Origin: Escherichia phage ECO340P2
Strand: one strand, 5' to 3'
Sequence record: OP172792
Length of the DNA stretch: 64,000 bases
The stretch's first letter is position 1; each line of letters opens with the position of its first letter. The notes beneath the pieces are model-generated. The model ran no database searches. It was not told where the DNA came from and saw only the letters and a list, made by a program, of their open reading frames with translations. The position numbers and the translations under genes were made by a program. Of this stretch, positions 12,123-44,918 are shown in pieces.

Positions 12123-12151
12123 TTGACAAGCCCAGGGATCGGGCTTATACT
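12123..12151 (+). promoter_or_regulatory. sigma70-like promoter TTGACA-N17-TATACT
   Basis: near-consensus hexamers; no credible ORF downstream. Confidence 0.55.
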
Positions 12152-12378: not shown

Positions 12379-12541
12379 AAATGAGAATGATTATCATTTA
12401 CCTTCTTAAATAAGAATCAATCTCATTTGAGTAGTTGAATGAGAATCATTCCTATTCGCAAAGTGAGAATAAGTCTCATTTACAACATTAAATGCGAATC
12501 AATCTCATTTGCATTTACATATGAGAATTGTTCTCATTCTC
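12379..12541. repeat. six palindromic iteron/operator-like sites (approx. AAATGAGAAT-N3-5-TCTCATTT)
   Basis: sites at about 12379, 12409, 12437, 12460, 12488, 12519; the last (ATGAGAAttgTTCTCAT) is a perfect palindrome. Confidence 0.6.
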
Positions 12542-29776: not shown

Positions 29777-30243
29777 ATTTTGCGGGATACGAACCTGTAG
29801 ATCTTATTAATGGTGAGGGAGTTAGGTGCTCCCTCTGGGTTAGTGGTTGTAGCCACGGTTGTCGTGGCTGTTTTAACCAGAAAGCCTGGTCTTATTCTTA
29901 TGGGAAACCGTTCACTCACGAAAATGTAGAGCAAGTTTTAAAAGATTTGTCAAGACCGTTTGTAAAAGGTTTAACAATTTTAGGAGGAGAACCATTAGAT
30001 CCGCAGAATATTGACAATGTTCAAAACCTTATAGAAAAGGTTAGAGACGTCTATGGGTCAAGCAAAGATATAATGGTGTATACAGGATATACTTTTGAGG
30101 AAGTGCCTTTGTATATTAAAAATCTTGTTGACATTATTGTAGACGGAAAGTATGAAATAAACAATCCAACTACAAAACCTTTCAGAGGGTCAGATAATCA
30201 AAGATTATGGACCAAAACGGCAAGTGGTTGGCAATCAGATTAA
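29773..30243 (+). CDS. nrdG: anaerobic RNR activating protein (radical SAM)
   Basis: CSHGCRGC radical-SAM cysteine triad; directly downstream of nrdD; TTG start. Confidence 0.75.
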   Translation: MNFAGYEPVDLINGEGVRCSLWVSGCSHGCRGCFNQKAWSYSYGKPFTHENVEQVLKDLSRPFVKGLTILGGEPLDPQNIDNVQNLIEKVRDVYGSSKDIMVYTGYTFEEVPLYIKNLVDIIVDGKYEINNPTTKPFRGSDNQRLWTKTASGWQSD

Positions 30244-30463: not shown

Positions 30464-31069
30464 ATGCAACATAGTGTAGTAGTTAACATGCCAAATAACG
30501 GGGATAAATCTTTTGGTATCCCTGCTAAAAAAGTGTGGAAAGCCCATTTTCATCTTACTTTATCTAACGTTAGTTCTGAAGAGTTGATGGAAGCAGCTAA
30601 GATCATTGGTGCCAAATGCACAACAATTGATTTACATCGGGATACAAAGTCTCAACGTGATCGTATGCTAACAAAGTATCAAAGCGATCTCGACACTACT
30701 TTAATGTTGCAGTGTGTAGAAAAACTTGAGAATGCAGGTTTCAATGTTGTTCGTTACAAACTGGAACGAATGTTTAAACATGTTGCCTGTGTTCTTTTCA
30801 TGGATCTAAGTAAAGAAAATTATGGAGAAGTTCACATTAAGACTTCAGCAAGTGATCCTGAAGTAGAAACAAACTTCTTCCGTATTTCTTCTAATGTTGA
30901 AGAAATTGACTACCGATTTTATAATGCTCGCTTATATTCCGCAGAAGATAAGTTGCGTTTCAATGAAGCATATGATATGCTCTTGAACAGCGGGATACAG
31001 ATAAAAGGCTACCACATAGAACAAGTTGTGGTAGACAGTAACTTAAATCTTGATGCATGGTGGGCCTAA
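30464..31069 (+). CDS. hypothetical protein (weak 2H-phosphoesterase-like HxTx motif)
   Basis: single HLTL motif near N-terminus; second motif not canonical. Confidence 0.45.
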   Translation: MQHSVVVNMPNNGDKSFGIPAKKVWKAHFHLTLSNVSSEELMEAAKIIGAKCTTIDLHRDTKSQRDRMLTKYQSDLDTTLMLQCVEKLENAGFNVVRYKLERMFKHVACVLFMDLSKENYGEVHIKTSASDPEVETNFFRISSNVEEIDYRFYNARLYSAEDKLRFNEAYDMLLNSGIQIKGYHIEQVVVDSNLNLDAWWA

Positions 31070-31070: not shown

Positions 31071-31727
31071 ATGACAATAAAACATATCTCTTTTGATGTA
31101 TGGAACACTCTTATTTCTACCAATCAAAACTATGCAGATGCACGTACGCATACTATCGCCACTTATGGTAGAATGTCTGAACGTGCAGCCAAAGAAGCAT
31201 ACAAAGATGCCAAAGAAATCATGGATAATGCTGCACTAAATGGGTGTGCAGAGGGTGTAGCATATGCATGGAATATGTTGGGAAGAAAGATAGGTTTAAC
31301 CCCTGTAGAATCTGCACAAATGCGTTTTGAGTGTGAACAATGGTTTCTTAAATTTCCTCCACATATTGCCTTAGATTTGCCAGTTTGTTTGCTATATTTG
31401 TCTGGTAAATATGACCTTAGTATTAAAAGCAATACTAATTTTATATCTGGGGATATTTTGCGTCGTGCTTGTATGTTTGACAGTTGGAATTGTTTTGAAT
31501 TTATGCATTTTTCAGACGAACATCTGTTGTGTAAACCAGATCCTAGATTCTTTGTTAGGACAGCCACATATTCAAGCATTCCTTTGAGGGCTGAAGAGAT
31601 TTTACATGTTGGGGACAGCGAAGAATTTGATGGTAAATGTGTTGACATAGGGATTAACTTCTGTCATATTAAGAACCCTAACGACTTACTAGAGAAACTT
31701 AAAAGAGGAGAAATTGTAAATGCGTAA
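31071..31727 (+). CDS. HAD-superfamily hydrolase (phosphatase-like)
   Basis: HAD motifs: FDVWNTL (I), SIKSN (II), KPDP (III), VGDSEEFD (IV). Confidence 0.65.
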   Translation: MTIKHISFDVWNTLISTNQNYADARTHTIATYGRMSERAAKEAYKDAKEIMDNAALNGCAEGVAYAWNMLGRKIGLTPVESAQMRFECEQWFLKFPPHIALDLPVCLLYLSGKYDLSIKSNTNFISGDILRRACMFDSWNCFEFMHFSDEHLLCKPDPRFFVRTATYSSIPLRAEEILHVGDSEEFDGKCVDIGINFCHIKNPNDLLEKLKRGEIVNA

Positions 31728-32547
31728 TCAAACTCAAATTTTTGCAAACAAATTTGATGATCTGGAAACTGCTACTTTTGATATCAAAGACTATTCAAAA
31801 TTGAAATTTGGTAGTAACCAGGCTGCGCGTCGTATGGGTAAAGAATTGGCCCTTCAGTTTTTTGCTCAAGTAGCAATGAAACATATTGGGGAACAATTTG
31901 TTATCATCCCTTCTCCTTATAACCATGTGCATAATGCTGCAACAATGATGACAGATCATTTTATTAATTACTTTAATATGTTGCAAGCACAATATGATCA
32001 AGGTCGTTCAGCAGAACTGGATATTATTCATCGTAAAGTTAGCTATATCAACGATTATGGTTTCTTGGATAAAGCTAGTCGTAAGAAACTTATTGATGGG
32101 GATACATTCTACTGCAACAAAGAATTCTGGGGTGATAAGAAGCTTGTGTTCATTGATGATGTAAATATCACTGGAACTCATGAAGACAAACTGATTGAGA
32201 TCCTTGATGAAAATCAAGTTAAAAATGATGTTTACTTCTTGTATTTTGCAAAATATGAAGGTAATCAAGCAGATACCGAAGCTAAACTGAATTTTAACTA
32301 TATTAATACACCAGAAGCATTTGTTAAAATGATTAATGAAGAACGTGATGCACAGTGTCTTGTTCGTCCTATTAAGTATCTTATGGGTCAAAATCACGAA
32401 GACTTCAAAATCATTCTTAGCCAATTGCCACACTACTATGTAGAGCAGCTTTTCTTCGGATGTTTGGGAGAAGGTTACAACCGAATTGCAAAGTATGCTG
32501 AAAACTTTGAGTTCTTGGATCGTTACACAAAACAACATATTCTGTGA
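31720..32547 (+). CDS. type I phosphoribosyltransferase-fold protein
   Basis: PRPP-binding loop KLVFIDDVNITGTHEDK. Confidence 0.6.
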   Translation: MRNQTQIFANKFDDLETATFDIKDYSKLKFGSNQAARRMGKELALQFFAQVAMKHIGEQFVIIPSPYNHVHNAATMMTDHFINYFNMLQAQYDQGRSAELDIIHRKVSYINDYGFLDKASRKKLIDGDTFYCNKEFWGDKKLVFIDDVNITGTHEDKLIEILDENQVKNDVYFLYFAKYEGNQADTEAKLNFNYINTPEAFVKMINEERDAQCLVRPIKYLMGQNHEDFKIILSQLPHYYVEQLFFGCLGEGYNRIAKYAENFEFLDRYTKQHIL

Positions 32548-32560: not shown

Positions 32561-33046
32561 ATGCTTAAAATGAAAACAGGTAATCTTATTGATGCCGCTA
32601 AAGCAGGGGAAGTAACGGTTATTGCTCATTGTTGTAATTGTATGTGTAACATGGGGGCAGGTATTGCCCCACAAATAAAATATGCGTTTCCATATGCATA
32701 CGAAGCAGATTTAGCTACAGGAGCAGGAAACCAGAAAAAGCTTGGTTCTTTTAGTTTAGGAGAACCAGAAGATTATCCTAATCCTATGGTATACAACCTT
32801 TATGGACAATATCGTTATGGATATAATAGTAAAGGTCGTCAATTAGATTATGATGCACTGTATGATGCTCTTGCAGCTATGGCAATGGACTTACACAATT
32901 ACGATAAAGGAGATCAACCAGCACATAAGATTGGTCTACCTATGATAGGTGCAGGTCATGCTGGAGGTAATTGGGCTATCATTGAAGTCATGATCAAAGA
33001 AACTTTAGTAAAAGCTGGTCACGATGTGACTATTTATAAACTTTAA
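32561..33046 (+). CDS. macro-domain protein (TARG1/Poa1p/DarG-like)
   Basis: VIAHCCNCMCNMGAGIAPQIKYAF matches recalled TARG1-type macro signature (hC.s.d..MGaGIA..F). Confidence 0.65.
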   Translation: MLKMKTGNLIDAAKAGEVTVIAHCCNCMCNMGAGIAPQIKYAFPYAYEADLATGAGNQKKLGSFSLGEPEDYPNPMVYNLYGQYRYGYNSKGRQLDYDALYDALAAMAMDLHNYDKGDQPAHKIGLPMIGAGHAGGNWAIIEVMIKETLVKAGHDVTIYKL

Positions 33047-33280: not shown

Positions 33281-33300
33281 ATTTAAAACAGATGGAGGGC

Positions 33301-33525
33301 ATGATGAAAGTAGCTGTAGTAGAAACGGATACAGACTATCATGGAGCTTATGTTGACACCAAGATAATGGAATTCCCTTCTATGTTGGAGGCTGAAACCT
33401 GGTGTGATACAAGGTCTAGTAAAGGAAGTGCTTATTTTATCGACAAAAGCTTAACCAAAGCTTTGAACGAAGAGGAAAAGCCTAAGAAAGAGCCAGAAAA
33501 TAATATCAGCTTATCTTGGTATTAA
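33301..33525 (+). CDS. hypothetical protein
   Basis: ORF with GGAGGG RBS. Confidence 0.5.
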   Translation: MMKVAVVETDTDYHGAYVDTKIMEFPSMLEAETWCDTRSSKGSAYFIDKSLTKALNEEEKPKKEPENNISLSWY

Positions 33526-33528
33526 CTG

Positions 33529-33587
33529 TTGACAAGCTTTTTAAAAAGAGTAAGATATATCACATGAAGCGGGGAATAGTTCCCCGC
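33529..33587 (+). promoter_or_regulatory. promoter TTGACA-N16-TAAGAT + leader hairpin GCGGGGAAtagTTCCCCGC (same module as early genes, plus strand)
   Basis: hexamers and hairpin read directly; 18 nt upstream of terC RBS. Confidence 0.6.
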
Positions 33588-33604
33588 AAAGAGAGGAGAA
33601 AAGA

Positions 33605-34579
33605 ATGCAACTTGGTTTCCCAATTATTGATGTAGTTGTTTTAGTTGGTATTTTAGCATTGTCTATTGGTATCGATTTCTTTGGTCATAAAGAAAATAAA
33701 GAAATTGGAATCAAATCTGCTTTGCTTTGGTCTGTTTTTTGGATTGCTTTAGCTTTAGGGTATTACGCATTCATTTGGGTAGAACATGGTAAAGAATTTG
33801 CCGCGCTTTTCCTAAGTGGTTATGTGTTGGAAAAGAGTCTTTCTGTAGATAACCTAATGGTGTTCATGGCAATTTTTGCAAGCTTTGGAATTAAAAGCAC
33901 ACATCTCCAACATAAGATCTTACTTTGGGGGATTGCAGGAGCCATTGTCTTCCGAGGTATTTTTGTTGCAGCAGGCACCGCTTTGTTTAACCTTCATTGG
34001 TCGGTCCAAGTGTTGTTTGGTCTGATTGTAGCTTGGTCTGCCGTTGCTATTATCAAAGGGGGTGACGAAGAAGAGGATATTGATTACTCTAAACATTGGG
34101 CTGTTCGTTTAGTAGGTAAAGTTCTGCCTATGCACAATGCACTGGATGGTGAAAAGTTCATTACTATTAAGAATAGTATTAAATATGCAACCCCTGCTCT
34201 TCTTTGTGTGTTTGTTATTGAGCTTACAGATATTGTCTTCTCTTTTGATTCAGTTCCGGCTGTGATTGGTGTGACACAAGAACCTCTGCTAGTTTATTCT
34301 GCAATGCTGATGGCTGTTCTTGGCCTACGTGCACTTTTCTTTGTGTTAAGTGTAGCTGTGAAATATTTGGTTCACTTAGAGAAAGCTGTTGCTGTGGTTC
34401 TGGTGTTTGTTGGTGCTAAACTTATGTATCACCCGTTCGGTGAAACACTTCATGCCAAGTGGTCATTCCTCCCGCATGATATCTCTCCTAACGTAAGTTT
34501 AATGATTGTTCTAGGCACATTAGCTCTTGGTGTTATTGCAAGCTTTATCTTTCCTGAAAAAGAAGAAGCCACTGTTTAA
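33605..34579 (+). CDS. terC: TerC-family integral membrane protein
   Basis: multiple TM helices; SLSVDNLMVF and ELTDIVFSFDSVPAVIGVT signatures. Confidence 0.8.
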   Translation: MQLGFPIIDVVVLVGILALSIGIDFFGHKENKEIGIKSALLWSVFWIALALGYYAFIWVEHGKEFAALFLSGYVLEKSLSVDNLMVFMAIFASFGIKSTHLQHKILLWGIAGAIVFRGIFVAAGTALFNLHWSVQVLFGLIVAWSAVAIIKGGDEEEDIDYSKHWAVRLVGKVLPMHNALDGEKFITIKNSIKYATPALLCVFVIELTDIVFSFDSVPAVIGVTQEPLLVYSAMLMAVLGLRALFFVLSVAVKYLVHLEKAVAVVLVFVGAKLMYHPFGETLHAKWSFLPHDISPNVSLMIVLGTLALGVIASFIFPEKEEATV

Positions 34580-34584
34580 TAGAT

Positions 34585-34610
34585 GAGCCTCCTTCGGGAG
34601 GCTATTTTAT
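34585..34610 (+). terminator. intrinsic terminator AGCCTCCttcgGGAGGCT + T-run
   Basis: 7-bp GC stem, tetraloop, ATTTTAT. Confidence 0.65.
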
Positions 34611-34621
34611 AGGAGAGACTT

Positions 34622-34972
34622 ATGAGTAATTTTGATGAAATTCAAGAACTTGTTTGGGATTTATGTGGTGATGTGGATTACGTTTCGGACTATCTTTCAA
34701 AAGTTTACCCTGGGGTAAGCGTTATGATTGTGACAAAAGATCCAATTAACTTACCTCCTAATGTGGTAGCTTGTTGTGGAAGTGGTTCAGGAGAAGTGGA
34801 GCCTGTATCTCGTTGGGAATTAACTAAAGCCGTTTCAAAACGAAACGGTGAAGTTTTGAATATTGATATCGAGCAAATATGGACTTCTCCAGCAGCCAAA
34901 TGGAATGATCCAAATGGTTGGGATTTGTTCTTTTGGGATAATGAAACTGATGATGAGGTATTTTTAAAATGA
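34622..34972 (+). CDS. hypothetical protein
   Basis: ORF with GGAGAG RBS. Confidence 0.55.
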   Translation: MSNFDEIQELVWDLCGDVDYVSDYLSKVYPGVSVMIVTKDPINLPPNVVACCGSGSGEVEPVSRWELTKAVSKRNGEVLNIDIEQIWTSPAAKWNDPNGWDLFFWDNETDDEVFLK

Positions 34973-35155
34973 AATACTTGTTGGTTGTGTTTGAAAATAT
35001 TTGTTTTGCAATAGGTTTGTTTGTTGTAATTTTTGTATTGACAAGCGTAATCAACGGCAGTAAAGTGAGTTTATACCGAGATGGAGAGCAGCTTTATTGC
35101 TTCTCTGGAGATTTCAAACACAGATGTATTAATAGTCAAAACGAGGAAAGCAAAT

Positions 35156-35593
35156 ATGAAAAAACTAGCCCTGATTTTAATTGGTTGTATCTTTTTAACA
35201 GCTTGCGAGGATGAAACAAATCCTGCACAATACCAACAACCTCCTCAACAATACGCTCAACAAGGATCTGACGGAGATACAACTATTATCAACAATGGTG
35301 GCGGCTCTAGTAGTAGCGGTGTTGGGGAGTTTGCTACAGGTATGTTGTTAGGGCATATGATGAGCGGTGGTAGTAATCGTGGTGGCGGAGATTATAACGA
35401 TAACAGAACGATTATTAATAAACATTATAACACACCTAAACCAAAGACTAATTTTTATGGTAAACCTAAACAAGAGACAAAAACTTATGAAAAGCCGAGA
35501 CAAACTTTTAAAACAAATAGTAGCTATACAACTCGTAAATCTTACAGTAGCCCTTTAAGTAAAAAGAGTTCATCTCGTAGCAAGCGACGTTAA
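35156..35593 (+). CDS. lipoprotein with Gly/Ser-rich and basic C-terminal regions
   Basis: MKKLALILIGCIFLTAC lipobox after trimming to ATG 35156. Confidence 0.6.
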   Translation: MKKLALILIGCIFLTACEDETNPAQYQQPPQQYAQQGSDGDTTIINNGGGSSSSGVGEFATGMLLGHMMSGGSNRGGGDYNDNRTIINKHYNTPKPKTNFYGKPKQETKTYEKPRQTFKTNSSYTTRKSYSSPLSKKSSSRSKRR

Positions 35594-35607
35594 TAAGGAG
35601 AAAAACA

Positions 35608-36201
35608 ATGACAATTTCTATTCGTACTTCCATCGTAGGTGTTAAAAGGTTGCCTAATGCTTTGCAAATCACACGTGCTTTGAGGGATACGTTCTCTGCT
35701 GTGGATGAGCATAAAATGCTTGATAATCTCTCAAATTGGCCCTATTTTCATTATTTTAAAAATGAAGATGACGAGTTTATAGATGCTGTTTCTTATGGTT
35801 ATGATTTCGGTAAGGAGGTTTCTCCTGAAGAATTTGTAGCTACGGTATTCCCAAATGGTTTTCCTACTCGCAGCAAACGTAAAAAAGGACCAAAAAACAA
35901 GAAACGTGCTATTAATAAAGCTACCATTTTCTTTACTGATGGGACACAGTATACGATTAAAGATTTTGAAGAAGTATCTTATACAGCAGGTGGAAATCTT
36001 TCTTTCTACACCATCAAAAAACAAAACGCTACGTTCAGCCATGTTTCTAACATGATTGAAATGTTAGTAGAAGATATTGAAAGCGTGGCTGTGTTAGGTA
36101 TGCATAAAAGCTTTTTAATTACAAATATTTCAGATTTCAGTGCACGTTTATCTAGCCCTGATTTTGAAGCCACGACCACGCATTTCACTTTTAAGGTGTA
36201 A
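35608..36201 (+). CDS. hypothetical protein
   Basis: ORF with AAGGAG RBS. Confidence 0.55.
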   Translation: MTISIRTSIVGVKRLPNALQITRALRDTFSAVDEHKMLDNLSNWPYFHYFKNEDDEFIDAVSYGYDFGKEVSPEEFVATVFPNGFPTRSKRKKGPKNKKRAINKATIFFTDGTQYTIKDFEEVSYTAGGNLSFYTIKKQNATFSHVSNMIEMLVEDIESVAVLGMHKSFLITNISDFSARLSSPDFEATTTHFTFKV

Positions 36202-36204
36202 GTT

Positions 36205-36795
36205 ATGTATACCGAGAGAGACTTGCAACTCTTGTGGTGGGAAGTGATGCAGGAAATAAAAGAAGATTTTCCTGTTTACTACAACATGTTACGTGAAGCA
36301 GGATATAAAGCTTGCGTTAGAAACAAAGTGAATAACTCTTTTGGTTGGTGCAACTACCGAGATAAAATTGTTGTTGTAAATTGGCACTTGCATAAGAACT
36401 CTACAAGAGATATGATCGTGGATACAATGAAGCATGAAATTGCTCATGCTATTGATGGTTGTATGGGTAAGTTTAGTAGGCACGGTGCTCATTGGCAAAA
36501 ACTGGCAGCAGAATTAGGGGCTAATCCTAAAGCCACTTCCAAAGAGCCGTTGAACCACGAATATAAATATGTTCTTGTTCTGGTAGATAGGTTTGCGACA
36601 AGGTGTGTTAGAGGTTATAATCGTAAACCTAATCGCATGTACCCAGGTAAGCAACCTAATATGTGGTTGAAATCAGATAAAGAAGGGACCGAAGGAAAAT
36701 TATGGTTGTATAAATGGGACGATTGGGTTAAAGTAGCTAAAGAGTACGGTGTTTCACCATATATAAGAGATGCAGAAGAGGAGAATGAAGAATGA
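36205..36795 (+). CDS. SprT-like zinc metallopeptidase-domain protein
   Basis: HEIAHAIDG (HExxH) followed by HGAHW. Confidence 0.55.
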   Translation: MYTERDLQLLWWEVMQEIKEDFPVYYNMLREAGYKACVRNKVNNSFGWCNYRDKIVVVNWHLHKNSTRDMIVDTMKHEIAHAIDGCMGKFSRHGAHWQKLAAELGANPKATSKEPLNHEYKYVLVLVDRFATRCVRGYNRKPNRMYPGKQPNMWLKSDKEGTEGKLWLYKWDDWVKVAKEYGVSPYIRDAEEENEE

Positions 36796-37904
36796 CAAGT
36801 CCATTTTTAAAAGCAGCTACTGGTGGTCAGAAGAAGTCTGAAATGAGTGTATTCGCTGCAACAACAGATGCAAGTAAATCTGTATTCGCGCCAAGCGTGT
36901 TAGATGCCAGTCCTGTTTATGCACCAGCCGCACCGCAAGAAGTCCCAGTTTTGCCTTCTATGACCCGACAAGAGATCGAAGAGATTGGGGCAGAGGCAGG
37001 AACAACCTTGCGTTCCTTGAATGCCGAGGTATTAAAACATCAACGTAGTAATCAAGGCGATCAGATGAGTGAACGACTCACAGCTTTGATTAAACAGGCA
37101 AAACAACTTGATCCAAACTCTATTAAACAAAGCAAGGGTATTACTAAACTCATTAAAAAGGTCATGGGTATGAAAGAAGACCTGTTCGGGGAGTTTGATA
37201 ATGTTAATAACCGTATTGAAGAGTTAGTAAAGAACCTTCAAATGGATATTCGCAAAGAAGAAGATTCCTTAGTATATCTTGAAAAACTACATCAAGCTAT
37301 TGGACAATATGCTGCAAGTTTGAACCGAGATATGCAGCTTCTAACAGCAACCTATGAAAAAGAAGAGCAAGCTTTGGCTGCTCTTCCAGAAGATGCAGTA
37401 GAACAGCGACAAGTGATCCGAGATACTTTGGATCTTCTGGAGATTCGTATTGCGGATTTAAAAGCATTGCGCCTACTGTGTGTCCAAATGGGACCACGTG
37501 TACAAGGTATGCAAAAAGTTTCTGCAAGCTTAATGCGATCTGCGCGTAACATAGTAAATAATGTTATCCCTGCTTACTCTGCTAACTTCTCAATGTATAT
37601 TGAGAGCTTACGTCAAATGAAAGCCGCAGAAACACAGAATAACGTTCTTGATGAATTTAACCTGGCAATTAAATTAGGTAGTGATTTGGCTACACAAAAT
37701 CAGATTGAAGCCGCAGCATTGGCTAACCGTCAAGTGTTAGATATTGATACTCTGCGACACGATCAGGAAAACTTAGTTAAAATGCTGGAAGAAACAAATC
37801 GCATCAATACAGAAGCCCGTGCTGCTCGTGTTGATTATATTAATGAAGTTCAATCTCTGGAAGACGGGATGGTAGCTGCTGTAAAACGAGGACTTGGTAA
37901 ATGA
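36792..37904 (+). CDS. helical protein, possibly TelA/KlaA-like toxic-anion-resistance family
   Basis: 370-aa largely helical protein within Ter-like cluster; family call from context and composition only. Confidence 0.35.
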   Translation: MTSPFLKAATGGQKKSEMSVFAATTDASKSVFAPSVLDASPVYAPAAPQEVPVLPSMTRQEIEEIGAEAGTTLRSLNAEVLKHQRSNQGDQMSERLTALIKQAKQLDPNSIKQSKGITKLIKKVMGMKEDLFGEFDNVNNRIEELVKNLQMDIRKEEDSLVYLEKLHQAIGQYAASLNRDMQLLTATYEKEEQALAALPEDAVEQRQVIRDTLDLLEIRIADLKALRLLCVQMGPRVQGMQKVSASLMRSARNIVNNVIPAYSANFSMYIESLRQMKAAETQNNVLDEFNLAIKLGSDLATQNQIEAAALANRQVLDIDTLRHDQENLVKMLEETNRINTEARAARVDYINEVQSLEDGMVAAVKRGLGK

Positions 37905-38095
37905 GAATCCGTGTTTATATGATTGATGATAGCTTTGGTGTCCGTTATGATGACGAAAAACGATTCGCGCCGATTAGCGGCATACATCCCCTAAGTGTTT
38001 TGGCAGCTTGTCGTGATAAATATCTCTATGAAGCTTGTAATCATTTTGGTTTTGAGCTTCTTTCAGATGTAGAGTTTAATGAGGAGGAAGGATGA
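37901..38095 (+). CDS. hypothetical small protein
   Basis: ORF, coupled. Confidence 0.5.
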   Translation: MRIRVYMIDDSFGVRYDDEKRFAPISGIHPLSVLAACRDKYLYEACNHFGFELLSDVEFNEEEG

Positions 38096-38265
38096 AAATA
38101 TTACGCGTGAATATTGAAACCGCTTGGTGCGGATGTAATGAGGTTGTGGATATTGAAATTGAAGATGATATGTCTAAAGAGGATATAGAAGATCTTGCAC
38201 ACGAAACCTTTCAGGACTATTGTAGCTATGGGTTCCATATTTTAGAGGAGGAAGAAGATGTATAA
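38092..38265 (+). CDS. hypothetical small acidic protein (57 aa)
   Basis: hand-translated ORF with GAGGAGGAAGG RBS. Confidence 0.45.
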   Translation: MKILRVNIETAWCGCNEVVDIEIEDDMSKEDIEDLAHETFQDYCSYGFHILEEEEDV

Positions 38266-38656
38266 TCCAACAGGTATTCTTTTAAAACTCACAGTAACAG
38301 ATCCTACTCTTTTCACCAAGTTAGTCAGTGGTGAAGTCTATGAAGTAATGAAAGATGACGACGGTTGGTGTTATCTTTGTGGCTACTACCTCTGTGATGC
38401 AGAAGAGTTAGAATCCATTACAACTAAAGGTTTTTATGAAGAACCAGGCTTCCGTGTGGAAACTACACAGAAACCTGATACCATTACGTTGACTCGACAG
38501 GAACTGATCACAATCATTGAAGATGCTTTTATTGATGGTTGGAATACACAAGATAATGATTGGGGTGGACCTGAAGCTTTTCTAGAACATCATAAAGCTT
38601 ACGGAGAATTTTGTGAAACCACTGTAGCTCTTGATAATCTGAAGGAGGGTTTGTAA
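38258..38656 (+). CDS. hypothetical protein
   Basis: ORF with GGAGGAAG RBS. Confidence 0.55.
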   Translation: MYNPTGILLKLTVTDPTLFTKLVSGEVYEVMKDDDGWCYLCGYYLCDAEELESITTKGFYEEPGFRVETTQKPDTITLTRQELITIIEDAFIDGWNTQDNDWGGPEAFLEHHKAYGEFCETTVALDNLKEGL

Positions 38657-39219
38657 TGGGTTGTTTTAGCTTTTTGTGTAAGGAATCGGGCAAAGCTGCC
38701 CTTTCTACTTCTTTCGACGGATCGCCTTGCTATCTCTTTCTTTTGAAAGATGGTGTTGTTATTGAAGAGATGTATGGCAACTACGATAGTTATGGTTGTG
38801 TTTTCTCTGGAAAGGAGGACGAAAATGGCGTTCGTGAACGGTTTGATTGGGTTATGGATTGGAGTAAGGTTTGTGATTTGATGCATTCCTCAAATCCAAG
38901 GGACGGTATCGCTATGGTGCTGGAAGAGTACTTTACAGGTGAAATCCCTACAGAACAATCTGACAGAGATCCTAACCAAGGTTGGGGTGATGGTGAAGAA
39001 GATCCAGATTGTTTTTTCAGCACAGAAAAGAATAAGTTTAAACGTGTTGACAACCCTTATCACAAAGTGCATAATACTCTCATTGAAACAGAAGATGACA
39101 AGATGGAAATTGAAGAAGATGATCCTCTTGTAACACTTCCTATAAGCGAGTTACAAAAGATTACTAAAGAAGCTTACGATTTGGGCTTCAAAATTGGTAG
39201 AGGAGGTATGCGTGTTTAG
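38656..39219 (+). CDS. hypothetical acidic protein
   Basis: ORF with GGAGGG RBS. Confidence 0.55.
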   Translation: MGCFSFLCKESGKAALSTSFDGSPCYLFLLKDGVVIEEMYGNYDSYGCVFSGKEDENGVRERFDWVMDWSKVCDLMHSSNPRDGIAMVLEEYFTGEIPTEQSDRDPNQGWGDGEEDPDCFFSTEKNKFKRVDNPYHKVHNTLIETEDDKMEIEEDDPLVTLPISELQKITKEAYDLGFKIGRGGMRV

Positions 39220-39484
39220 ATTCAATATTCAAGAAGAAAAGTATAAGGATTTACCTGTTCCTTTCGAAGATCTTGACGTAGGGGATACATTCATGTATTA
39301 TGCTGCCTATGAAGATGCAGGGTTGGATACTTACATTAATTTGGTGTTCATTAAAAGTTCTCCAAACAGCGCAATCTGCATCAGTGGATCGCAACGAGGT
39401 TATACACATTGTATCCCGCCAGATACAAATATGGTGGAAGTAGATTTAGAAGTTACCAATATCACACTTAAGAAGGAGAAATAA
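39194..39484 (+). CDS. hypothetical protein, paralog of 40506..40775
   Basis: shared DLDVGDTF motif and C-terminal ..VT(N/G)ITLK. Confidence 0.55.
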   Translation: MVEEVCVFRFNIQEEKYKDLPVPFEDLDVGDTFMYYAAYEDAGLDTYINLVFIKSSPNSAICISGSQRGYTHCIPPDTNMVEVDLEVTNITLKKEK

Positions 39485-39485
39485 T

Positions 39486-40280
39486 ATGTCCGAGAAAATC
39501 AGCCTGAAAAAACGTCAAGAAAACCTTGCTTTCTCTCTGAAAAAGAATAAGAACCTGAATGAAGGTAAGATTGTTCTTCGTGTAGCATGTGCTCTAGATA
39601 TTTCTGGTAGTATGCATGGTCTATATGCTCGTGGAGTAGTGAGTGATTTTGTAGGTAAACTGCTCCCTTTTGGTATGCTGTTCGACGATAATGAACAAAT
39701 TGATATGTGGGCCTTCAATACAAGTTCTCAAGAGCTTACTCCAGCAACAGCAGACGTTTACGATGATTATGTTGGTAAATGTATGCGTAATGTTCGTATC
39801 GGAGGTGGAACAAATTACGCCCCTGTAATGGCAGATATCTACGATGAGTATTTTGGCACTGTTACCAAATATATTACCACTAAACAAGTGGTACAAGAGG
39901 AGGCTCCAAAGAAAGGCTTCTTTAATCGTCTGCTTGGTAAAACTGAAACAGTATCTGTAGAGCGTGAAAAGGTTGTAGCTGTATCTGAACCAGGTGCTGA
40001 CGTTACCCCTGGTGTTGTATTCTTCCAGACGGATGGTGAGAATGGTGATCCTAGTGCTGTTCGTCGTCTTATTGAAGAGAATAAGAATAAACCTATTTAT
40101 TGGTTCATGGTTGGCGTCGGTAATGAGAAGTTTGGCTTCCTGAAAGAACTGGCAAATGCTTATGATAATGTTGGTTTTATTGGCATTAAAGATTTAGACT
40201 TGACAGATTCAGAGCTTTATGACAAACTCTTATCTGAAGAGTTCGGAGAGTGGGTTGTTAAAGTAGGTGCTAAAAAATGA
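39486..40280 (+). CDS. von Willebrand factor A (vWA) domain protein, TerY-like
   Basis: MIDAS motif ALDISGSMHG; N-terminal KISLKK shared with TerD gene. Confidence 0.65.
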   Translation: MSEKISLKKRQENLAFSLKKNKNLNEGKIVLRVACALDISGSMHGLYARGVVSDFVGKLLPFGMLFDDNEQIDMWAFNTSSQELTPATADVYDDYVGKCMRNVRIGGGTNYAPVMADIYDEYFGTVTKYITTKQVVQEEAPKKGFFNRLLGKTETVSVEREKVVAVSEPGADVTPGVVFFQTDGENGDPSAVRRLIEENKNKPIYWFMVGVGNEKFGFLKELANAYDNVGFIGIKDLDLTDSELYDKLLSEEFGEWVVKVGAKK

Positions 40281-40525
40281 TCGACGAGCTTGCCTCTCAA
40301 GTCGTAGAAAATTATTGGCGCGAGAGAGAAGCTTTCATTATGCGCAGTCTCAAAGAATATTTCATTGGGACTGTGCGGATGGAAGATATTGTAAGTAGAG
40401 TAGAGATTCATGTATGGCCTGATTATGAAGAATGGGTTGACAAAGAAAATGAAAATGCTATAATTCTTCGTATATACAAACCGGAGATAACATTAGGAGG
40501 AAGAAGTGTTAAACTTCGAAATTGA
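40277..40525 (+). CDS. hypothetical protein
   Basis: ORF, coupled. Confidence 0.5.
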   Translation: MIDELASQVVENYWREREAFIMRSLKEYFIGTVRMEDIVSRVEIHVWPDYEEWVDKENENAIILRIYKPEITLGGRSVKLRN

Positions 40526-40775
40526 TGAGCAAAAAATAAATAAACGATGCCTTACCATTAAAGATTTGGATGTAGGAGATACTTTCGTCTATGAAAATGC
40601 ATTTGACGAAAATGGTTTAGACCTTAGTGAAGTCATTGTTTATTTAAAAGTAGATGATGGGGAAAATGATTATTCTGCTGTAGAATTAAACCATCATGCA
40701 CAATTAGTAGCAATCCAAAACACATCTAAGCTTTTGGAAGTAGAATTGACTGTAACTGGTATTACACTTAAATAA
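40506..40775 (+). CDS. hypothetical protein, paralog of 39194..39484
   Basis: DLDVGDTF motif. Confidence 0.55.
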   Translation: MLNFEIDEQKINKRCLTIKDLDVGDTFVYENAFDENGLDLSEVIVYLKVDDGENDYSAVELNHHAQLVAIQNTSKLLEVELTVTGITLK

Positions 40776-40790
40776 TAGAGGAGACAAAAG

Positions 40791-41393
40791 ATGACTGATA
40801 AAATTTCCCTGAAAAAAGGCTCTAGCGAAAAAATTTCCCTGAAGAAAGTTGCTCCGGCTCTGAAAGAACTGCGCCTGGAATTCTCTTGGAAATCTGATTC
40901 TAAACTGGATCTGGATGTAAGTGCACTGGTTTGTCGTCATAATGCCGCTGGCAATCCTGAAATGCTGTCTGCACGTCATCTGGTTTGCTATGCTAACAAG
41001 TTTGATCCTGAACGTTCTACCTTTGCTGGTGACGATGTTCGTGATGGGACTGGCAGCATGGAGCAGATTGATATTACTCTGGCTAAAATCTCTCCCGATG
41101 CACAAGAGATTGCCTTTGTTCTGACCATTGATGATGATACAGGTCTGAAACGTTTTGGTCATGCTTCTGAAGGTATGCTTAAAATCTTCGACTCCGAGTG
41201 TAATGTGGAAATTCTGGATTTTGACTTCCTGGCTCCTGAAGTAGCTGGCAACACAATCTGCCACGTGGCTTCCTTGGTTCGTGAAGATGGTGAATGGAAG
41301 CTGAAAGCATATGGTGTAGGTAAAGCTGGTCTGGATATTTGTGATGTGGTGATGGCCTTCGGTGGTAAAAAAGAATGGTATGAATGTCCATAA
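40791..41393 (+). CDS. terD: TerD-domain stress protein
   Basis: KISLKKG...ISLKK, DLDVSAL, GDDVRDGTG, MLKIFDSE, C-terminal WK..A.G.G.AGL. Confidence 0.75.
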   Translation: MTDKISLKKGSSEKISLKKVAPALKELRLEFSWKSDSKLDLDVSALVCRHNAAGNPEMLSARHLVCYANKFDPERSTFAGDDVRDGTGSMEQIDITLAKISPDAQEIAFVLTIDDDTGLKRFGHASEGMLKIFDSECNVEILDFDFLAPEVAGNTICHVASLVREDGEWKLKAYGVGKAGLDICDVVMAFGGKKEWYECP

Positions 41394-41411: not shown

Positions 41412-41435
41412 GAGGGGGGAGAAATCCCCCTCTTG
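41412..41435 (+). terminator. hairpin GAGGGGGgagaaatCCCCCTC after terD
   Basis: 7-bp G/C stem; weak T-run. Confidence 0.5.
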
Positions 41436-41493: not shown

Positions 41494-42015
41494 TTGCTGA
41501 TAAAAAACTTTGTAACAGTTGCGTTACTATCCTTAACTGCTTTTACATTTACACCTGTTGTGGCGAAAGCCGAAGCTGCAAACGTAAAAACCGCTAAAGT
41601 AGTTCACAAATGTACAAAGCAATATAATGATAAAATTCTATTAGCTTGTGCAATTTACGCAGAAGGTCGCGGTCTGGGTAAAAAAGGAATGAATGCCGTT
41701 GGGAATGTGGTAATCAATAGAAGAAATGATGCCTACTTTCCTAACACAGTCAGAGGAGTCTTGTTCCAGAAAGGACAATTTTCATATGCGAAAACTTTTA
41801 ACGTAACAGAGAAAGATAAGTGGCAGGAAGCAAAAGCAATAGCGGAGCGTTTACTTTATTTAGAGAAACATTTTCCTGAATTGCGATCTGTTTTAGATGT
41901 TACTAAAGGTGCTCTATACTTCAAGAAACGGAATATAAGGACACACTGGGAACGCGATATGCGTCTTGTTTATCGAGATAAAGTGCATGGTTTCTATCTA
42001 CCAAAGGAGAGTTAA
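41494..42015 (+). CDS. secreted cell-wall hydrolase, SleB/CwlJ-like (Hydrolase_2)
   Basis: signal peptide; CAIYAEGRG...GNVVINR...VRGVLFQKGQFS; TTG start after AGGAGG. Confidence 0.6.
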   Translation: MLIKNFVTVALLSLTAFTFTPVVAKAEAANVKTAKVVHKCTKQYNDKILLACAIYAEGRGLGKKGMNAVGNVVINRRNDAYFPNTVRGVLFQKGQFSYAKTFNVTEKDKWQEAKAIAERLLYLEKHFPELRSVLDVTKGALYFKKRNIRTHWERDMRLVYRDKVHGFYLPKES

Positions 42016-42718: not shown

Positions 42719-43282
42719 ATGATTTATTATATTACTCCCTATCTGACAGGAAATATCGGCAAGGCTATTAATGAAGCCATTGCCGTTCTTCCAGATGATA
42801 GTTGGGTGTGTTTAAGAGATACTGATACAATGTTCCTTCTGCCTGATCAACCATCTATGTTGGAAGATCTTGTTATGTCAAACCCACCTTTTGATGTAAT
42901 AGGTGCAACTTGTAATAGACTAGGTAGTGGTTATCAGCTTTTCTCTAACCAAATTAATGATGACCCAGACATTCTAAACCATATAGAATATGCTAAAATT
43001 GCACGGGAATATCATAAAACAAACGTTGAAGAAGTTCCTTTTGGAACACCTTTAGCTGGTTTCTTTTTGCTTTTTAGAAAATCATTGTGGAATGAGATTC
43101 CTTTCGAAGAAAAATCTATCCAATTTGACTTAATTTTCTCTCGCACTTTACATGAAAAAGGAAAGAGGTTAGGATTGATGCGGGGAATGTATCTGTTCCA
43201 CATTTATAGGTTAGGTCAAACAAATCCTCAACGGTCTATAAACCATTTATTACACTGTCACGATCACAGTAAAACTATTTAG
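42719..43282 (+). CDS. possible glycosyltransferase (DxD-like DTD motif)
   Basis: LRDTDTMF motif; adjacent to other GT genes; weak. Confidence 0.35.
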   Translation: MIYYITPYLTGNIGKAINEAIAVLPDDSWVCLRDTDTMFLLPDQPSMLEDLVMSNPPFDVIGATCNRLGSGYQLFSNQINDDPDILNHIEYAKIAREYHKTNVEEVPFGTPLAGFFLLFRKSLWNEIPFEEKSIQFDLIFSRTLHEKGKRLGLMRGMYLFHIYRLGQTNPQRSINHLLHCHDHSKTI

Positions 43283-43290
43283 GAGAGAAA

Positions 43291-43974
43291 ATGGAAAATA
43301 TTAAAATCGGAGTAGGTGTTATCACTGTAGGTGTCCGTCCACTTAAAGATTACCTTGTAACAGATCCACGTGCAGATTTTCGAGTATTCAACGATCCAGA
43401 TCGTAAAGGTGTAGCTTATGCCAGGAATGAACTTATGCACCAGTTCTATGAAGAAGGTTATGATTATTGGTTTATTTTTGACGATGATTGTTACCCAGTT
43501 ATGGAGGGATGGGAAACATATTTTGTAGACCAAGCTATTTCTGGAAGATGGGATTTCTTTGGTATGCCGGAGTATTTCAAAGATAAAGTTGTCGGAAGCA
43601 AAGGAGAAGTTATTCTCTGGGAACTTGCAATGTGTCAATTTGCAATGTATTCTCGTGCCGTTGTTGAGAAGATGGGTTATTTCCGCCCTTACACTCACGG
43701 TTATGGTTTTGAAGATGCCGAATGGGGACACCGTTTGAAAGCTGCTGGTTTGAATCATGGTATTCAGGCAACACCTTGTCCACTTCGCATTATGGCTTAT
43801 ATTCACCCAGACGATGTTTTTGGAAACAATCCTATGCCTTTTGCTAATCTGACTAAAGAAGAGAAAGAAGCCGCTATTGGGATTAACTGGGAAGAATATA
43901 AAGCGTCTTTAGAGGATATTAAAAATGGGAAAATCCGACTTTCCTATGAGGAGGCAATGGCACATGTCAAATAA
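43291..43974 (+). CDS. GT-A fold (family 2-like) glycosyltransferase
   Basis: FIFDDDCYP and GYGFEDAEWGHRL. Confidence 0.55.
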   Translation: MENIKIGVGVITVGVRPLKDYLVTDPRADFRVFNDPDRKGVAYARNELMHQFYEEGYDYWFIFDDDCYPVMEGWETYFVDQAISGRWDFFGMPEYFKDKVVGSKGEVILWELAMCQFAMYSRAVVEKMGYFRPYTHGYGFEDAEWGHRLKAAGLNHGIQATPCPLRIMAYIHPDDVFGNNPMPFANLTKEEKEAAIGINWEEYKASLEDIKNGKIRLSYEEAMAHVK

Positions 43975-44911: not shown

Positions 44912-44918
44912 GTGAAGT

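What the first reader, a model, noticed from the sequence alone, without database searches (positions are those of the whole stretch)
33605..41393. Phage-borne Ter-like module: TerC + TelA-like + vWA (TerY-like) + TerD in one operon
A TerC membrane protein (33605-34579), a helical TelA-like candidate (36792-37904), a vWA/MIDAS protein (39486-40280) and a clear TerD-domain protein (40791-41393) are co-oriented in the same rightward operon with a lipoprotein and a SprT-like metallopeptidase, immediately downstream of a HAD + PRTase pair. This is the gene set of bacterial tellurite-resistance-type stress loci, which are also linked to phage resistance and a predicted nucleoside-like metabolite. 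Finding it inside a virulent phage replication operon, driven by the phage early promoter-hairpin module, suggests the phage brings its own Ter-like system, for membrane or metal homeostasis during infection or for counter-defence.
Basis: partly seen in the sequence, partly recalled or inferred. Interest (0 to 1): 0.8.

Follow-up and report, generated by a model that had tools for sequence, protein, structure and literature searches.

The report
Known phage-borne Ter stress module
The window comes from a phAPEC8-like E. coli phage, and it does carry its own tellurite-resistance-type (Ter) gene set, but this set is conserved across the phage subfamily, partly annotated since 2012 and already described in other phages, while its role during infection is still untested.

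Summary
Pfam recovers TerC (3e-40), TelA (7e-33), a TerF-type vWA (1e-37), TerD (9e-28) and SprT-like (4e-9) at the stated coordinates. Upstream lie a Ter-associated PRTase_3 (8e-42), an atypical HAD and a macro domain.

The window is a Phapecoctavirus (94-96% nt identity to phAPEC8/ESCO13). The block is present in all 131 related phage records. GenBank entries already label TerC, TelA and TerD. Phage Ter systems with PRTase+HAD are described by Iyer et al. 2021, and for phiPsa374 and phiKp34. So it is real and functional-looking, but not new.

Corrections:
- The vWA is TerF-type, not TerY.
- "One operon" is unproven. terC has its own conserved sigma70-like promoter and a terminator-like hairpin, and another consensus promoter precedes terD.
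- TerD has a degenerate Ca2+ loop.
- TerB, TerA/Z, ATP-grasp and lyase genes are absent.

New details:
- TerC (88%) and TerD (85%) are more conserved than the primase-helicase (79%).
- The HAD-PRTase_3 pair lies beside or inside Ter cores in four other phage contigs.
- In T4-like jumbo phages the pair occurs without Ter genes, next to another MIDAS protein.

Best guess: an early-expressed envelope and ion-state remodelling complex that excludes superinfecting phages or colicins (inferred, about 0.35).

The parts
31071..31727 (+). HAD-superfamily hydrolase with atypical motif I (D-x-W-x-T); 5' partner of the PRTase
   Evidence: Pfam Hydrolase 5.8e-4; phrog_14393 'hydrolase' 5e-120. Motifs I-IV are invariant in 5 phage lineages. 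It lies directly 5' of PRTase_3 in 7 of 8 contexts examined (not in L018).
31720..32547 (+). PRTase_3 (ComF-like type I phosphoribosyltransferase), the Ter-associated 'biosynthetic' enzyme
   Evidence: Pfam PF15610 8.1e-42, full length. PRPP loop VFIDDVNITGTHE is invariant. AF2 pLDDT 92 with a type I PRTase core; best PDB matches are HG(X)PRT, ComF and PyrR, TM 0.38-0.47.
32570..33046 (+). Macro-domain protein (DarG-like macro); membership in the module uncertain
   Evidence: Pfam Macro 4.6e-4, below cut-off; phrog_335 1e-53; PADLOC DarG 1.9e-9; NCBIfam DarG 1e-8. Conserved at this position in KP2025 and Paula.
33529..33587 (+). Sigma70-like promoter (TTGACA-16-TAAGAT, 33529-33556) and 5'-UTR hairpin (33569-33587) in front of terC
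   Evidence: The hexamers are conserved while the spacer varies in ESCO13, phAPEC8 and KP2025. phAPEC8 annotates a 'putative host dependent promoter' at the same spot.
33605..34579 (+). TerC/Alx-subfamily integral membrane protein
   Evidence: Pfam TerC 3.4e-40. NCBIfam TIGR03718 TerC/Alx 317 bits, cut-off 246. About 50% identity to bacterial TerC/Alx. 88% identity to KP2025.
34586..34610 (+). Terminator-like hairpin (AGCCTCC-TTCG-GGAGGCT) plus ATTTTAT directly after terC
   Evidence: 25/25 identical in ESCO13 and phAPEC8.
35156..35593 (+). Predicted lipoprotein (lipobox LTAC; conserved GGGSSSSGVGEFATGMLLGHM motif)
   Evidence: Translation. Homologues in Paula at 36% and KP2025 at 37%. No Pfam family.
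35608..36201 (+). Conserved protein of unknown function (phrog_27550)
   Evidence: C-terminal half is 41% identical to the Paula 283-aa ORF and 38% to KP2025.
36205..36795 (+). SprT-like Zn metallopeptidase (HEIAH); its stop overlaps the telA start
   Evidence: Pfam SprT-like 4.2e-9. 49% identity to KP2025 'SprT-like family'. Absent from Justusliebigvirus, so it is an accessory gene.
36792..37904 (+). TelA (toxic anion resistance protein family)
   Evidence: Pfam TelA 7.2e-33, profile 13-327/332. Found in 219 phage records.
39194..39484 (+). Small protein, phrog_11278 paralogue A, directly 5' of the vWA gene
39486..40280 (+). vWA protein of the TerF C-terminal type with an intact MIDAS site
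   Evidence: Pfam vWA-TerF-like 1.3e-37. DxSxS, T and D of the MIDAS motif are invariant in 7 phage lineages.
40437..40464 (+). Perfect consensus sigma70 promoter (TTGACA-16-TATAAT with TG) upstream of phrog_11278-B and terD
   Evidence: 28/28 identical in ESCO13 and phAPEC8. KP2025 has TTGACA-16-TAGAAT between vWA and terD.
40506..40775 (+). Small protein, phrog_11278 paralogue B, directly 5' of terD
40791..41393 (+). TerD-domain protein with a degenerate acidic Ca2+ loop
   Evidence: Pfam TerD 9.2e-28. PDB 2kxt 3e-15 and 3ibz 3e-14. Loop is GDDVRDGTGSMEQ versus canonical GDNRTGEGDGDDE. 85% identity to KP2025.
41412..41432 (+). GC-rich hairpin after terD, immediately before the promoter-like site of the SleB-like hydrolase gene

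Best explanation
Identity (shown, confidence about 0.95). This is the conserved Ter module of the phage subfamily Stephanstirmvirinae; the window is a Phapecoctavirus. It has two parts:
- A four-protein core: a TerC/Alx-type inner-membrane protein, TelA, a TerF-type vWA/MIDAS protein and TerD.
- A HAD-PRTase_3 enzyme pair.
Lineage-specific envelope accessories sit among these genes: two small membrane proteins, a lipoprotein and a SprT-like peptidase.

Mechanism (inferred, confidence about 0.35).
- Host RNA polymerase transcribes terC and terD early, from their own sigma70-like promoters.
- TerC inserts in the inner membrane. TelA, the MIDAS protein and TerD assemble beneath it into a metal-dependent complex.
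- The complex changes envelope and divalent-cation (Mn2+/Ca2+/Zn2+) state.
- The PRTase and HAD make a small nucleotide- or nucleoside-like ligand from PRPP that acts on this complex.
- The net effect is that the already infected cell becomes refractory to secondary insults, above all superinfecting phages and colicins. This mirrors the phage-inhibition and colicin-resistance phenotypes of plasmid ter loci.
For: Homology and conservation:
- Pfam and NCBIfam assignments.
- MIDAS residues are invariant across 7 phage lineages. The PRPP loop is invariant across 40 PRTase_3 homologues.
- Searches with the 11-kb block, TelA and PRTase_3 each return 131 records at 60% identity or more. Order is conserved in Justusliebigvirus and the Klebsiella phage KP2025.
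- TerC (88%) and TerD (85%) are more conserved than the primase-helicase (79%).

Recurrence elsewhere:
- The same four-gene core recurs compactly in unrelated phages: CcrBL9 and phiPsa374.
- HAD-PRTase_3 lies directly beside or inside Ter cores in L011, L012 and L017, and within 7 kb in L018.

Expression signals:
- Promoter hexamers are conserved while spacers vary. phAPEC8 annotates a host-dependent promoter at the terC site.

Functional analogy from papers:
- Insertions in plasmid R478 terC, terD and terZ reduce or abolish phage inhibition and colicin resistance (Whelan 1995, as summarised in PMC12054061).
- A Klebsiella terC deletion gives larger plaques (PMC12054061).
- Iyer et al. 2021 propose that phage Ter systems serve competition with superinfecting phages (PMC7824862, section 3.4.10).
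Against: - No experiment on any phage ter gene was found. PMC9796965 states that their functions during infection are unknown.
- PADLOC has no model matching any of the four core proteins.
- The TerC is of the Alx subfamily, whose characterised members export Mn2+ (PMC10197570) or metalate secreted enzymes (PMC10550928). That favours the metal-homeostasis rival.
- The Stephanstirmvirinae TerD has lost three acidic residues of the canonical Ca2+ loop.
- The HAD lacks the general-acid Asp at D+2, so 'nucleotidase' is not secure.
- HAD-PRTase_3 also occurs without Ter genes, in RNA-repair neighbourhoods of T4-like jumbo phages.
- TerB and the other terZABCDEF genes are absent.
Confidence: 0.4

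Rival explanations
1. Metal homeostasis or metalation. The phage TerC/Alx exports Mn2+ (or Zn2+/Ca2+), or loads metal onto Sec-exported proteins. TerD, vWA (MIDAS) and TelA act as metal-binding regulators or scaffolds. Together they keep the cytoplasm and periplasm of the infected cell suited to phage enzymes, such as the ribonucleotide reductases just upstream and the exported SleB-like hydrolase and lipoprotein in the same block.
For: - TerC reaches the curated cut-off of TIGR03718 'TerC/Alx family metal homeostasis membrane protein' (317 bits against 246) and is about 50% identical to such bacterial proteins.
- Alx is a Mn2+ exporter (PMC10197570). TerC proteins metalate exoenzymes during Sec export, and MeeF is the TerC of the yceCDEFGH TerD/TelA operon (PMC10550928).
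- TerC confers Zn and Mn resistance in Klebsiella (PMC12054061) and exports Mn in Vibrio (PMC13274385).
- The MIDAS site is invariant.
- Neighbours are RNR genes and an exported hydrolase with a signal peptide.
Against: - There is no yybP-ykoY Mn riboswitch or any other Rfam hit in the block.
- This reading does not explain the HAD-PRTase_3 link.
- It does not explain why four proteins are co-inherited in many phages when the host already has Alx-type proteins.
- The TerD Ca2+ loop is degenerate in this lineage.
Confidence: 0.3
2. Counter-defence or envelope maintenance. The TelA/vWA/TerD/TerC complex stabilises the inner membrane against host abortive-infection effectors that depolarise or perforate it, or against premature lysis. 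This keeps the cell productive until the phage's own lysis programme fires.
For: - Early sigma70-type promoters.
- All accessory genes in the block are envelope-directed: two small membrane proteins, a lipoprotein and a secreted hydrolase.
- Strong purifying selection on TerC and TerD.
- Ter loci are described as a membrane-linked stress response (PMC8386662, PMC7824862).
Against: - There is no direct evidence of any kind.
- No similarity to known anti-defence proteins was found.
- Bacterial Ter acts against phages, not for them (PMC12054061).
Confidence: 0.15
3. The HAD-PRTase_3 pair (and the macro domain) is not part of the Ter system. It is an autonomous nucleotide-salvage or RNA-repair-linked pair that merely sits in the same early block. 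The Ter core here would then lack a biosynthetic arm.
For: - In T4-like jumbo contigs (XaC1/L014, L015, L016) the pair occurs without any Ter gene. It sits among RNA ligase, CCA-adding enzyme, PTH2, 2H-SAK and Band_7 genes.
- In the window it is separated from terC by the macro gene, two small ORFs and a promoter.
- Macro homologues are noted in rV5, FelixO1 and PVP-SE1 (note).
Against: - The pair is immediately adjacent to vWA-TerF in L011 and L012, and sandwiched between TerC and TerD in L017.
- 5 of 8 sampled contexts have Ter genes within 10 kb.
- Even the Ter-less contexts place it next to a MIDAS-motif protein.
- Iyer et al. count PRTase+HAD as the Ter signal-synthesis arm (PMC7824862).
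Confidence: 0.3
4. The genes are unrelated hitch-hiking 'morons' with no joint function in the phage.
For: Several intervening ORFs are lineage-specific and variable.
Against: - The same four families co-occur in at least six unrelated phage contexts.
- The block is present in all 131 related records.
- Catalytic and MIDAS motifs are invariant.
- TerC and TerD are more conserved than the primase-helicase.
Confidence: 0.03

Closest known systems
Phage-encoded Ter systems described by Iyer, Anantharaman, Krishnan, Burroughs & Aravind 2021 (PMC7824862, section 3.4.10): Acinetobacter phage vB_AbaM_ME3 (with PRTase+HAD) and Caulobacter jumbo phages (TerD, TerC, TerF, TelA)
   Same: Same four core families plus the PRTase+HAD arm, carried by virulent tailed phages. 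The paper explicitly adds 'certain other related smaller tailed phages'. I confirmed the Caulobacter core TelA-vWA-TerC-TerD.
   Different: Here the phage is a 150-kb non-jumbo Stephanstirmvirinae member. The core is spread over about 8 kb with lineage-specific inserts. TerD has a degenerate acidic loop, and a macro domain and a SprT-like peptidase are interleaved.
Ter clusters of Pseudomonas phage phiPsa374 (PMC9796965) and Klebsiella phage phiKp34 (PMC8386662)
   Same: terC, terD, terF-vWA and telA in a virulent phage. The authors note that the set is incomplete relative to terZABCDEF and that its function in infection is unknown. Homology to the window proteins is 23-26%.
   Different: phiPsa374 has a compact cluster with the canonical TerD Ca2+ loop and no PRTase_3 hit. 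Its neighbours are NAMPT and PRPP synthetase.
Bacterial and plasmid terZABCDEF (IncHI2 R478, E. coli O157, Klebsiella)
   Same: TerC, TerD-domain and TerF-type vWA families. [quoted passage not shown]
   Different: No TerB, TerA, TerZ or TerE, and no TerD-vWA fusion (TerF). TelA is present here but belongs to a separate locus (telAB/kilA) in plasmids. The phage proteins are distant: TerD matches 2kxt at only E=3e-15, and TerC is about 50% identical at most.
Bacillus subtilis yceCDEFGH operon (TerD paralogues, MeeF/YceF TerC, YceH TelA)
   Same: Same TerD + TerC + TelA core. MeeF is shown to metalate exported enzymes (PMC10550928).
   Different: According to my own knowledge of that operon, it has no vWA-TerF and no PRTase/HAD. 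It is a chromosomal stress operon, not a viral one.
E. coli Alx (TerC/Alx subfamily Mn2+ exporter)
   Same: The phage TerC meets the curated TIGR03718 subfamily cut-off.
   Different: There is no Mn riboswitch leader. Instead it is driven by a constitutive-looking sigma70 promoter with a short hairpin, and it is accompanied by TelA, vWA and TerD.

Membership tests
Ter system sensu Anantharaman/Iyer/Aravind (as summarised in PMC7824862) | TerC-family integral membrane protein | tested here: met
   PF03741 3.4e-40; TIGR03718 317 bits, above cut-off 246.
Ter system sensu Anantharaman/Iyer/Aravind (as summarised in PMC7824862) | TerD-domain ligand- or Ca2+-binding protein | tested here: met
   PF02342 9.2e-28; PDB 2kxt 3e-15.
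Ter system sensu Anantharaman/Iyer/Aravind (as summarised in PMC7824862) | Canonical acidic Ca2+-binding loop of TerD (GDN-TG-G-GDDE) | tested here: not met
   The window has GDDVRDGTGSMEQ. Three acidic positions are replaced (D to T, S and M). The canonical loop is kept in 2kxt/3ibz and in four other phage TerDs. Whether metal binding is lost cannot be told from sequence.
Ter system sensu Anantharaman/Iyer/Aravind (as summarised in PMC7824862) | TelA sub-membrane helical protein | tested here: met
   PF05816 7.2e-33 over 13-327/332.
Ter system sensu Anantharaman/Iyer/Aravind (as summarised in PMC7824862) | TerF-type vWA domain with MIDAS site | tested here: met
   PF10138 1.3e-37. D38-x-S40-x-S42, T109 and D183 are invariant.
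Ter system sensu Anantharaman/Iyer/Aravind (as summarised in PMC7824862) | Signal-biosynthesis arm: PRTase plus HAD phosphoesterase | tested here: met
   PF15610 8.1e-42. The HAD motifs are conserved, though motif I is D-x-W-x-T. The pair is adjacent to Ter cores in L011, L012 and L017. The product and the link to Ter are inferred, not shown.
Ter system sensu Anantharaman/Iyer/Aravind (as summarised in PMC7824862) | Further biosynthetic enzymes (ATP-grasp, C-C lyase) and TerB | tested here: not met
   No such Pfam hit among 30 ORFs scanned between 29.7 and 42 kb. The list of these components rests on my memory of Anantharaman et al. 2012, which could not be read.
Classical terZABCDEF tellurite-resistance operon | Gene set TerZ, TerA, TerB, TerC, TerD, TerE, TerF in one operon | tested here: not met
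   Only TerC, one TerD and a stand-alone TerF-type vWA are present.
Classical terZABCDEF tellurite-resistance operon | Confers tellurite resistance, phage inhibition and colicin resistance | not testable with these tools
   Needs expression in E. coli with MIC and plating assays.
Stephanstirmvirinae (phAPEC8/phi92-like) conserved early gene block | Nucleotide identity and synteny with published genomes | tested here: met
   94-96% identity over 96-98% of 11 kb to 61 records. Same order in ESCO13, phAPEC8 and DE16, Paula and KP2025.
Known anti-phage defence systems (PADLOC-DB v2) | Match of core proteins to a defence-system model | tested here: not met
   TerC, TelA, vWA, TerD, PRTase and HAD gave no hit. 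Only the macro domain (DarG, 1.9e-9) and the 201-aa ORF ('AbiEi', 8e-13) matched.

The most novel reading that the evidence does not exclude
The HAD-PRTase_3 pair makes a dedicated small nucleotide- or nucleoside-like ligand whose receptor is a MIDAS/vWA protein. In Ter-bearing phages this couples to TerD, TelA and TerC, giving a self-contained, phage-encoded signalling-and-effector system that seals the infected cell against rival phages. In T4-like jumbo phages the same pair is re-wired to a different MIDAS protein (DUF2828/DUF7788) in an RNA-repair setting. The degenerate Ca2+ loop of the Stephanstirmvirinae TerD would mark a switch from metal binding to ligand binding.
Probability: 0.15. 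Interest if true: 0.65.

Novelty: already known. Interest (0 to 1): 0.3.

Why it matters
Ter loci are among the most widespread bacterial stress, phage-resistance and virulence-linked gene sets, yet they still have no accepted mechanism. A compact version that is strictly conserved in a virulent coliphage offers a tractable system for asking what the TerC-TelA-vWA-TerD complex and the PRTase/HAD product do. Several of these phages were isolated on E. coli K-12 MG1655, which lacks its own TerD and TelA according to my own knowledge. Practically, these phages are used as therapy and biocontrol candidates. Their 'tellurite resistance' annotations are sometimes flagged as resistance genes (PMC4690881, PMC3728262), so knowing that this is a phage-intrinsic early module rather than a transferable resistance cassette is useful. 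As a discovery, however, the finding adds little beyond existing annotation and the 2021 comparative analysis.

Tried and rejected

2. I looked for a Mn2+ (yybP-ykoY) riboswitch in the terC leader, because the TerC is of the Alx type. There is no Rfam hit at E of 1 or less across 29.5-42.5 kb, and the leader is only about 50 nt.

3. I tested the idea that phi92-type phages carry two TerD paralogues, as RAST-based reports suggest. The second ORF (Paula 11867-12469, and the KP2025 627-bp ORF) is only 11-17% identical and does not align as TerD.

4. I asked whether the unannotated 311-402-aa proteins in the L011 and L012 Ter clusters are divergent TelA. BLASTP was not significant, so this is left open.

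5. I asked whether the DUF7788 MIDAS protein is homologous to the TerF-type vWA. Only the DxSGS motif aligns, with hhalign probability 0.6%.

6. I tried to assign a substrate to the PRTase from structure. Only the generic type I core matches (HGPRT, ComF, PyrR at TM 0.38-0.47), so no assignment is possible.

7. PDB sequence searches for TelA, TerC and PRTase_3 found nothing.

8. Anantharaman et al. 2012 and Burroughs & Aravind 2016 could not be retrieved.

9. Literature searches for experiments on phage ter genes found none.

Full report
**What is there**

The region lies in a long rightward gene block. The block runs from the anaerobic ribonucleotide reductase genes nrdD/nrdG (27962-30243) to the primase-helicase and DNA polymerase.

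- TerC, 33605-34579, E=3.4e-40.
- TelA, 36792-37904, E=7.2e-33, nearly full-length.
- vWA-TerF-like, 39486-40280, E=1.3e-37.
- TerD, 40791-41393, E=9.2e-28.
- SprT-like, 36205-36795, E=4.2e-9.

Upstream lie three more genes:
- PRTase_3, 31720-32547, E=8.1e-42.
- A weakly scoring HAD hydrolase, 31071-31727.
- A macro domain, about 32570-33046.

A SleB-type cell-wall hydrolase with a signal peptide follows at 41494-42015, and then four glycosyltransferases. The remaining ORFs have no Pfam family. They include two small membrane proteins, a lipoprotein with lipobox LTAC, and two paralogous small proteins (phrog_11278) placed directly 5' of the vWA and TerD genes.

**Where it comes from**

The 11-kb stretch is 94-96% identical to Phapecoctavirus genomes, including phAPEC8, ESCO13, Schickermooser and many others. 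Searches with the DNA block, the TelA protein and the PRTase protein each return 131 phage records at 60% identity or more. The block therefore appears to be a fixed feature of the subfamily Stephanstirmvirinae and its Klebsiella and Citrobacter relatives.

Gene order is the same in Justusliebigvirus (phi92/Paula) and in Klebsiella phage KP2025. Between the window and KP2025, TerC is 88% identical and TerD 85%. That is higher than the primase-helicase (79%) and every other gene in the shared 19 kb, which argues for strong purifying selection.

**Functional motifs**

- The vWA MIDAS residues (DxSxS, T, D) are invariant in seven phage lineages.
- The PRPP-binding loop VFIDDVNITGTHE is invariant in 40 PRTase_3 homologues.
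- The AF2 model of the PRTase (pLDDT 92) has a type I PRTase core plus a private C-terminal helical domain. Its nearest solved folds are 6-oxopurine PRTases, ComF and PyrR at TM 0.38-0.47, so no substrate can be assigned.
- The TerC meets the curated cut-off for the TerC/Alx metal-homeostasis subfamily. It is about 50% identical to bacterial members, so it is not a recent capture from the host.

Two deviations stand out:
- The TerD acidic loop reads GDDVRDGTGSMEQ instead of the canonical GDNRTGEGDGDDE. The canonical loop is retained by Klebsiella TerD (2kxt) and by TerDs of four other phage lineages.
- HAD motif I is D-x-W-x-T in all five lineages examined, so it lacks the usual general-acid Asp.

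**Transcription signals**

'One operon' is an over-reading.

- A sigma70-like promoter (TTGACA-16-TAAGAT, 33529-33556) with a short 5'-UTR hairpin precedes terC. Its hexamers are conserved while the spacer varies in ESCO13, phAPEC8 and KP2025. phAPEC8's depositors annotated a host-dependent promoter at the same spot.
- terC is followed by a conserved UUCG-loop hairpin plus a T-rich tail.
- A perfect consensus promoter (40437-40464) lies upstream of the phrog_11278-B and terD pair. KP2025 has its own TTGACA-16-TAGAAT between vWA and terD.

These are consensus matches, not mapped transcripts. They do suggest early, host-polymerase-driven and separately boosted expression of terC and terD. No riboswitch or other Rfam element is present.

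**Is the HAD-PRTase pair part of the system?**

I looked at eight genomic contexts of PRTase_3 homologues at 45-65% identity.

- In L011 and L012 the order is TerC - unknown - TerD - helical unknown - vWA-TerF - HAD - PRTase_3.
- In L017 the pair sits between TerC and TerD, with TelA-vWA upstream.
- In L018, a 143-kb phage laid out much like the window, the PRTase lies 3 kb beyond TelA and a SleB-type hydrolase.
- In three T4-like jumbo contexts (XaC1/L014, L015, L016) the pair has no Ter neighbours. There it sits beside a DUF2828/DUF7788 protein carrying a DxSGS MIDAS motif, among RNA-ligase, CCA-adding enzyme, PTH2, 2H-SAK and Band_7 genes.

So the pair is a mobile two-gene unit. It is linked to Ter genes in 5 of 8 samples, and it has a vWA/MIDAS-type protein nearby in every sample. 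The link to Ter is well supported, but it is not exclusive.

**What is already known**

- phi92 (2012) and phAPEC8 (2012) records, and later RefSeq annotation, already name TerC, 'tellurite resistance' (TelA) and TerD/TerE. The vWA and PRTase genes are mostly annotated as 'hypothetical'.
- Iyer et al. 2021 describe phage Ter systems. They report a near-complete one with PRTase and HAD in Acinetobacter phage ME3, and abbreviated TerD/TerC/TerF/TelA operons in Caulobacter jumbo phages. They mention 'certain other related smaller tailed phages' and propose a role in competition with superinfecting phages.
- The same four genes are reported for phiKp34 and phiPsa374, whose authors state that the functions during infection are unknown. 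I confirmed the compact cores in CcrBL9 and phiPsa374.
- I found no experimental test of any phage ter gene.

**Mechanism**

Shown:
- The family memberships.
- Intact MIDAS and PRPP motifs.
- Conservation, synteny and recurrent co-occurrence across phages.
- Promoter-like signals.

Inferred:
- The four proteins act together at the inner membrane.
- The PRTase/HAD product acts on them.
- The outcome is exclusion of secondary phages and colicins.

The last inference rests on analogy. Plasmid ter loci show phage-inhibition and colicin-resistance phenotypes, and a Klebsiella terC deletion gives larger plaques.

The main rival is metal homeostasis or metalation. It draws on the Alx-subfamily membership and on experimental work on Alx, MeeF/MeeY and Vibrio TerC. 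A counter-defence or envelope-maintenance role cannot be excluded. I put superinfection exclusion at about 0.35, metal homeostasis at about 0.3 and counter-defence at about 0.15. These roles are not mutually exclusive.

**Verdict**

The module is a known, annotated and conserved feature of this phage group, and the concept is published. The novelty class is therefore 'already known' and interest is modest (0.3).

The residual value lies in these details:
- The TerF-type, not TerY-type, vWA.
- Separate promoters for terC and terD.
- The degenerate TerD loop and the atypical HAD.
- The dual Ter and RNA-repair contexts of the HAD-PRTase_3 pair.
- The tractable E. coli K-12 host, which makes the unsolved question of Ter function approachable.

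Noticed in passing
window 39194-39484 and 40506-40775: Two paralogous small ORFs (phrog_11278, 34% identical) sit immediately 5' of the vWA gene and of terD. Justusliebigvirus has one copy and Klebsiella phage KP2025 has none. Function unknown, no Pfam family.
   Followed up: partly
L014 9333-12527; L015 9345-12562; L016 7152-10825: In T4-like jumbo phage contigs the HAD-PRTase_3 pair occurs without Ter genes. It is always beside a DUF2828/DUF7788 protein with a DxSGS MIDAS motif, within an RNA-repair neighbourhood (RNA ligase, CCA-adding enzyme, PTH2, 2H-SAK, Band_7).
   Followed up: partly
window 31071-31727: HAD motif I is D-x-W-x-T (Trp at D+2) and is invariant in five phage lineages. The classical general-acid Asp of HAD phosphatases is missing, so the 'nucleotidase' role is uncertain.
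   Followed up: partly
window 40791-41393 (residues about 80-93): The TerD acidic Ca2+-binding loop is degenerate in Stephanstirmvirinae (GDDVRDGTGSMEQ). It is canonical in four other phage lineages and in PDB 2kxt and 3ibz.
   Followed up: partly
window 30464-31069: A 201-aa ORF just upstream of the HAD gene matches PADLOC models named 'AbiEi' (8e-13). It has invariant HxHxT and ExHxK motifs and folds (pLDDT 83) as two ferredoxin-like repeats with no specific structural match. It is conserved in KP2025 (75%) but replaced by other genes in phi92-like phages.
   Followed up: yes
window 32570-33046; L008 10565-11071: The macro-domain protein resembles the DarG antitoxin macro domain (1.9e-9 and 1e-8). 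A 39% identical homologue lies 2.5 kb from telA in phiPsa374. It could reverse ADP-ribosylation, for example DarT-type defence, independently of Ter.
   Followed up: partly
L003/L008 (phiPsa374), L006/L009 (CcrBL9), L012 13029-14612: NAD-salvage genes lie near Ter cores in three other phage contexts: NAMPT plus PRPP synthetase, NadM-Nudix, and a PnuC-like NMN transporter plus AAA_28. This may simply reflect clustering of nucleotide-metabolism genes.
   Followed up: no
window 33281-33604: Relative to ESCO13 and phAPEC8, the window has an insertion of about 245 nt carrying a 77-aa ORF (33292-33525). It sits between the small membrane protein gene and the terC promoter.
   Followed up: partly
window 41494-42015 and 42719-45863: A SleB-type cell-wall hydrolase with a Sec signal peptide directly follows terD; the same Hydrolase_2 family follows TelA in L018. 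Four glycosyltransferase genes come next, two of them paralogues at 40% identity.
   Followed up: no
phage records MG065656.1, MG065645.1, OP562383.1: Records labelled 'Campylobacter phage C3/A145' and 'Acinetobacter phage vB_AbaM_ABPW7' are Stephanstirmvirinae coliphage-like by sequence (78.5% and 94% identity). Their host labels look doubtful.
   Followed up: no
L002 11867-12469; L007 6243-6869: The ORF after terD in phi92-like and KP2025 phages has no homologue in the window and does not align as a TerD (11-17% identity), so these phages have only one TerD. RAST labelled two phi92 genes (gp172 and gp173) as TerD; gp173 is in fact the vWA protein.
   Followed up: yes
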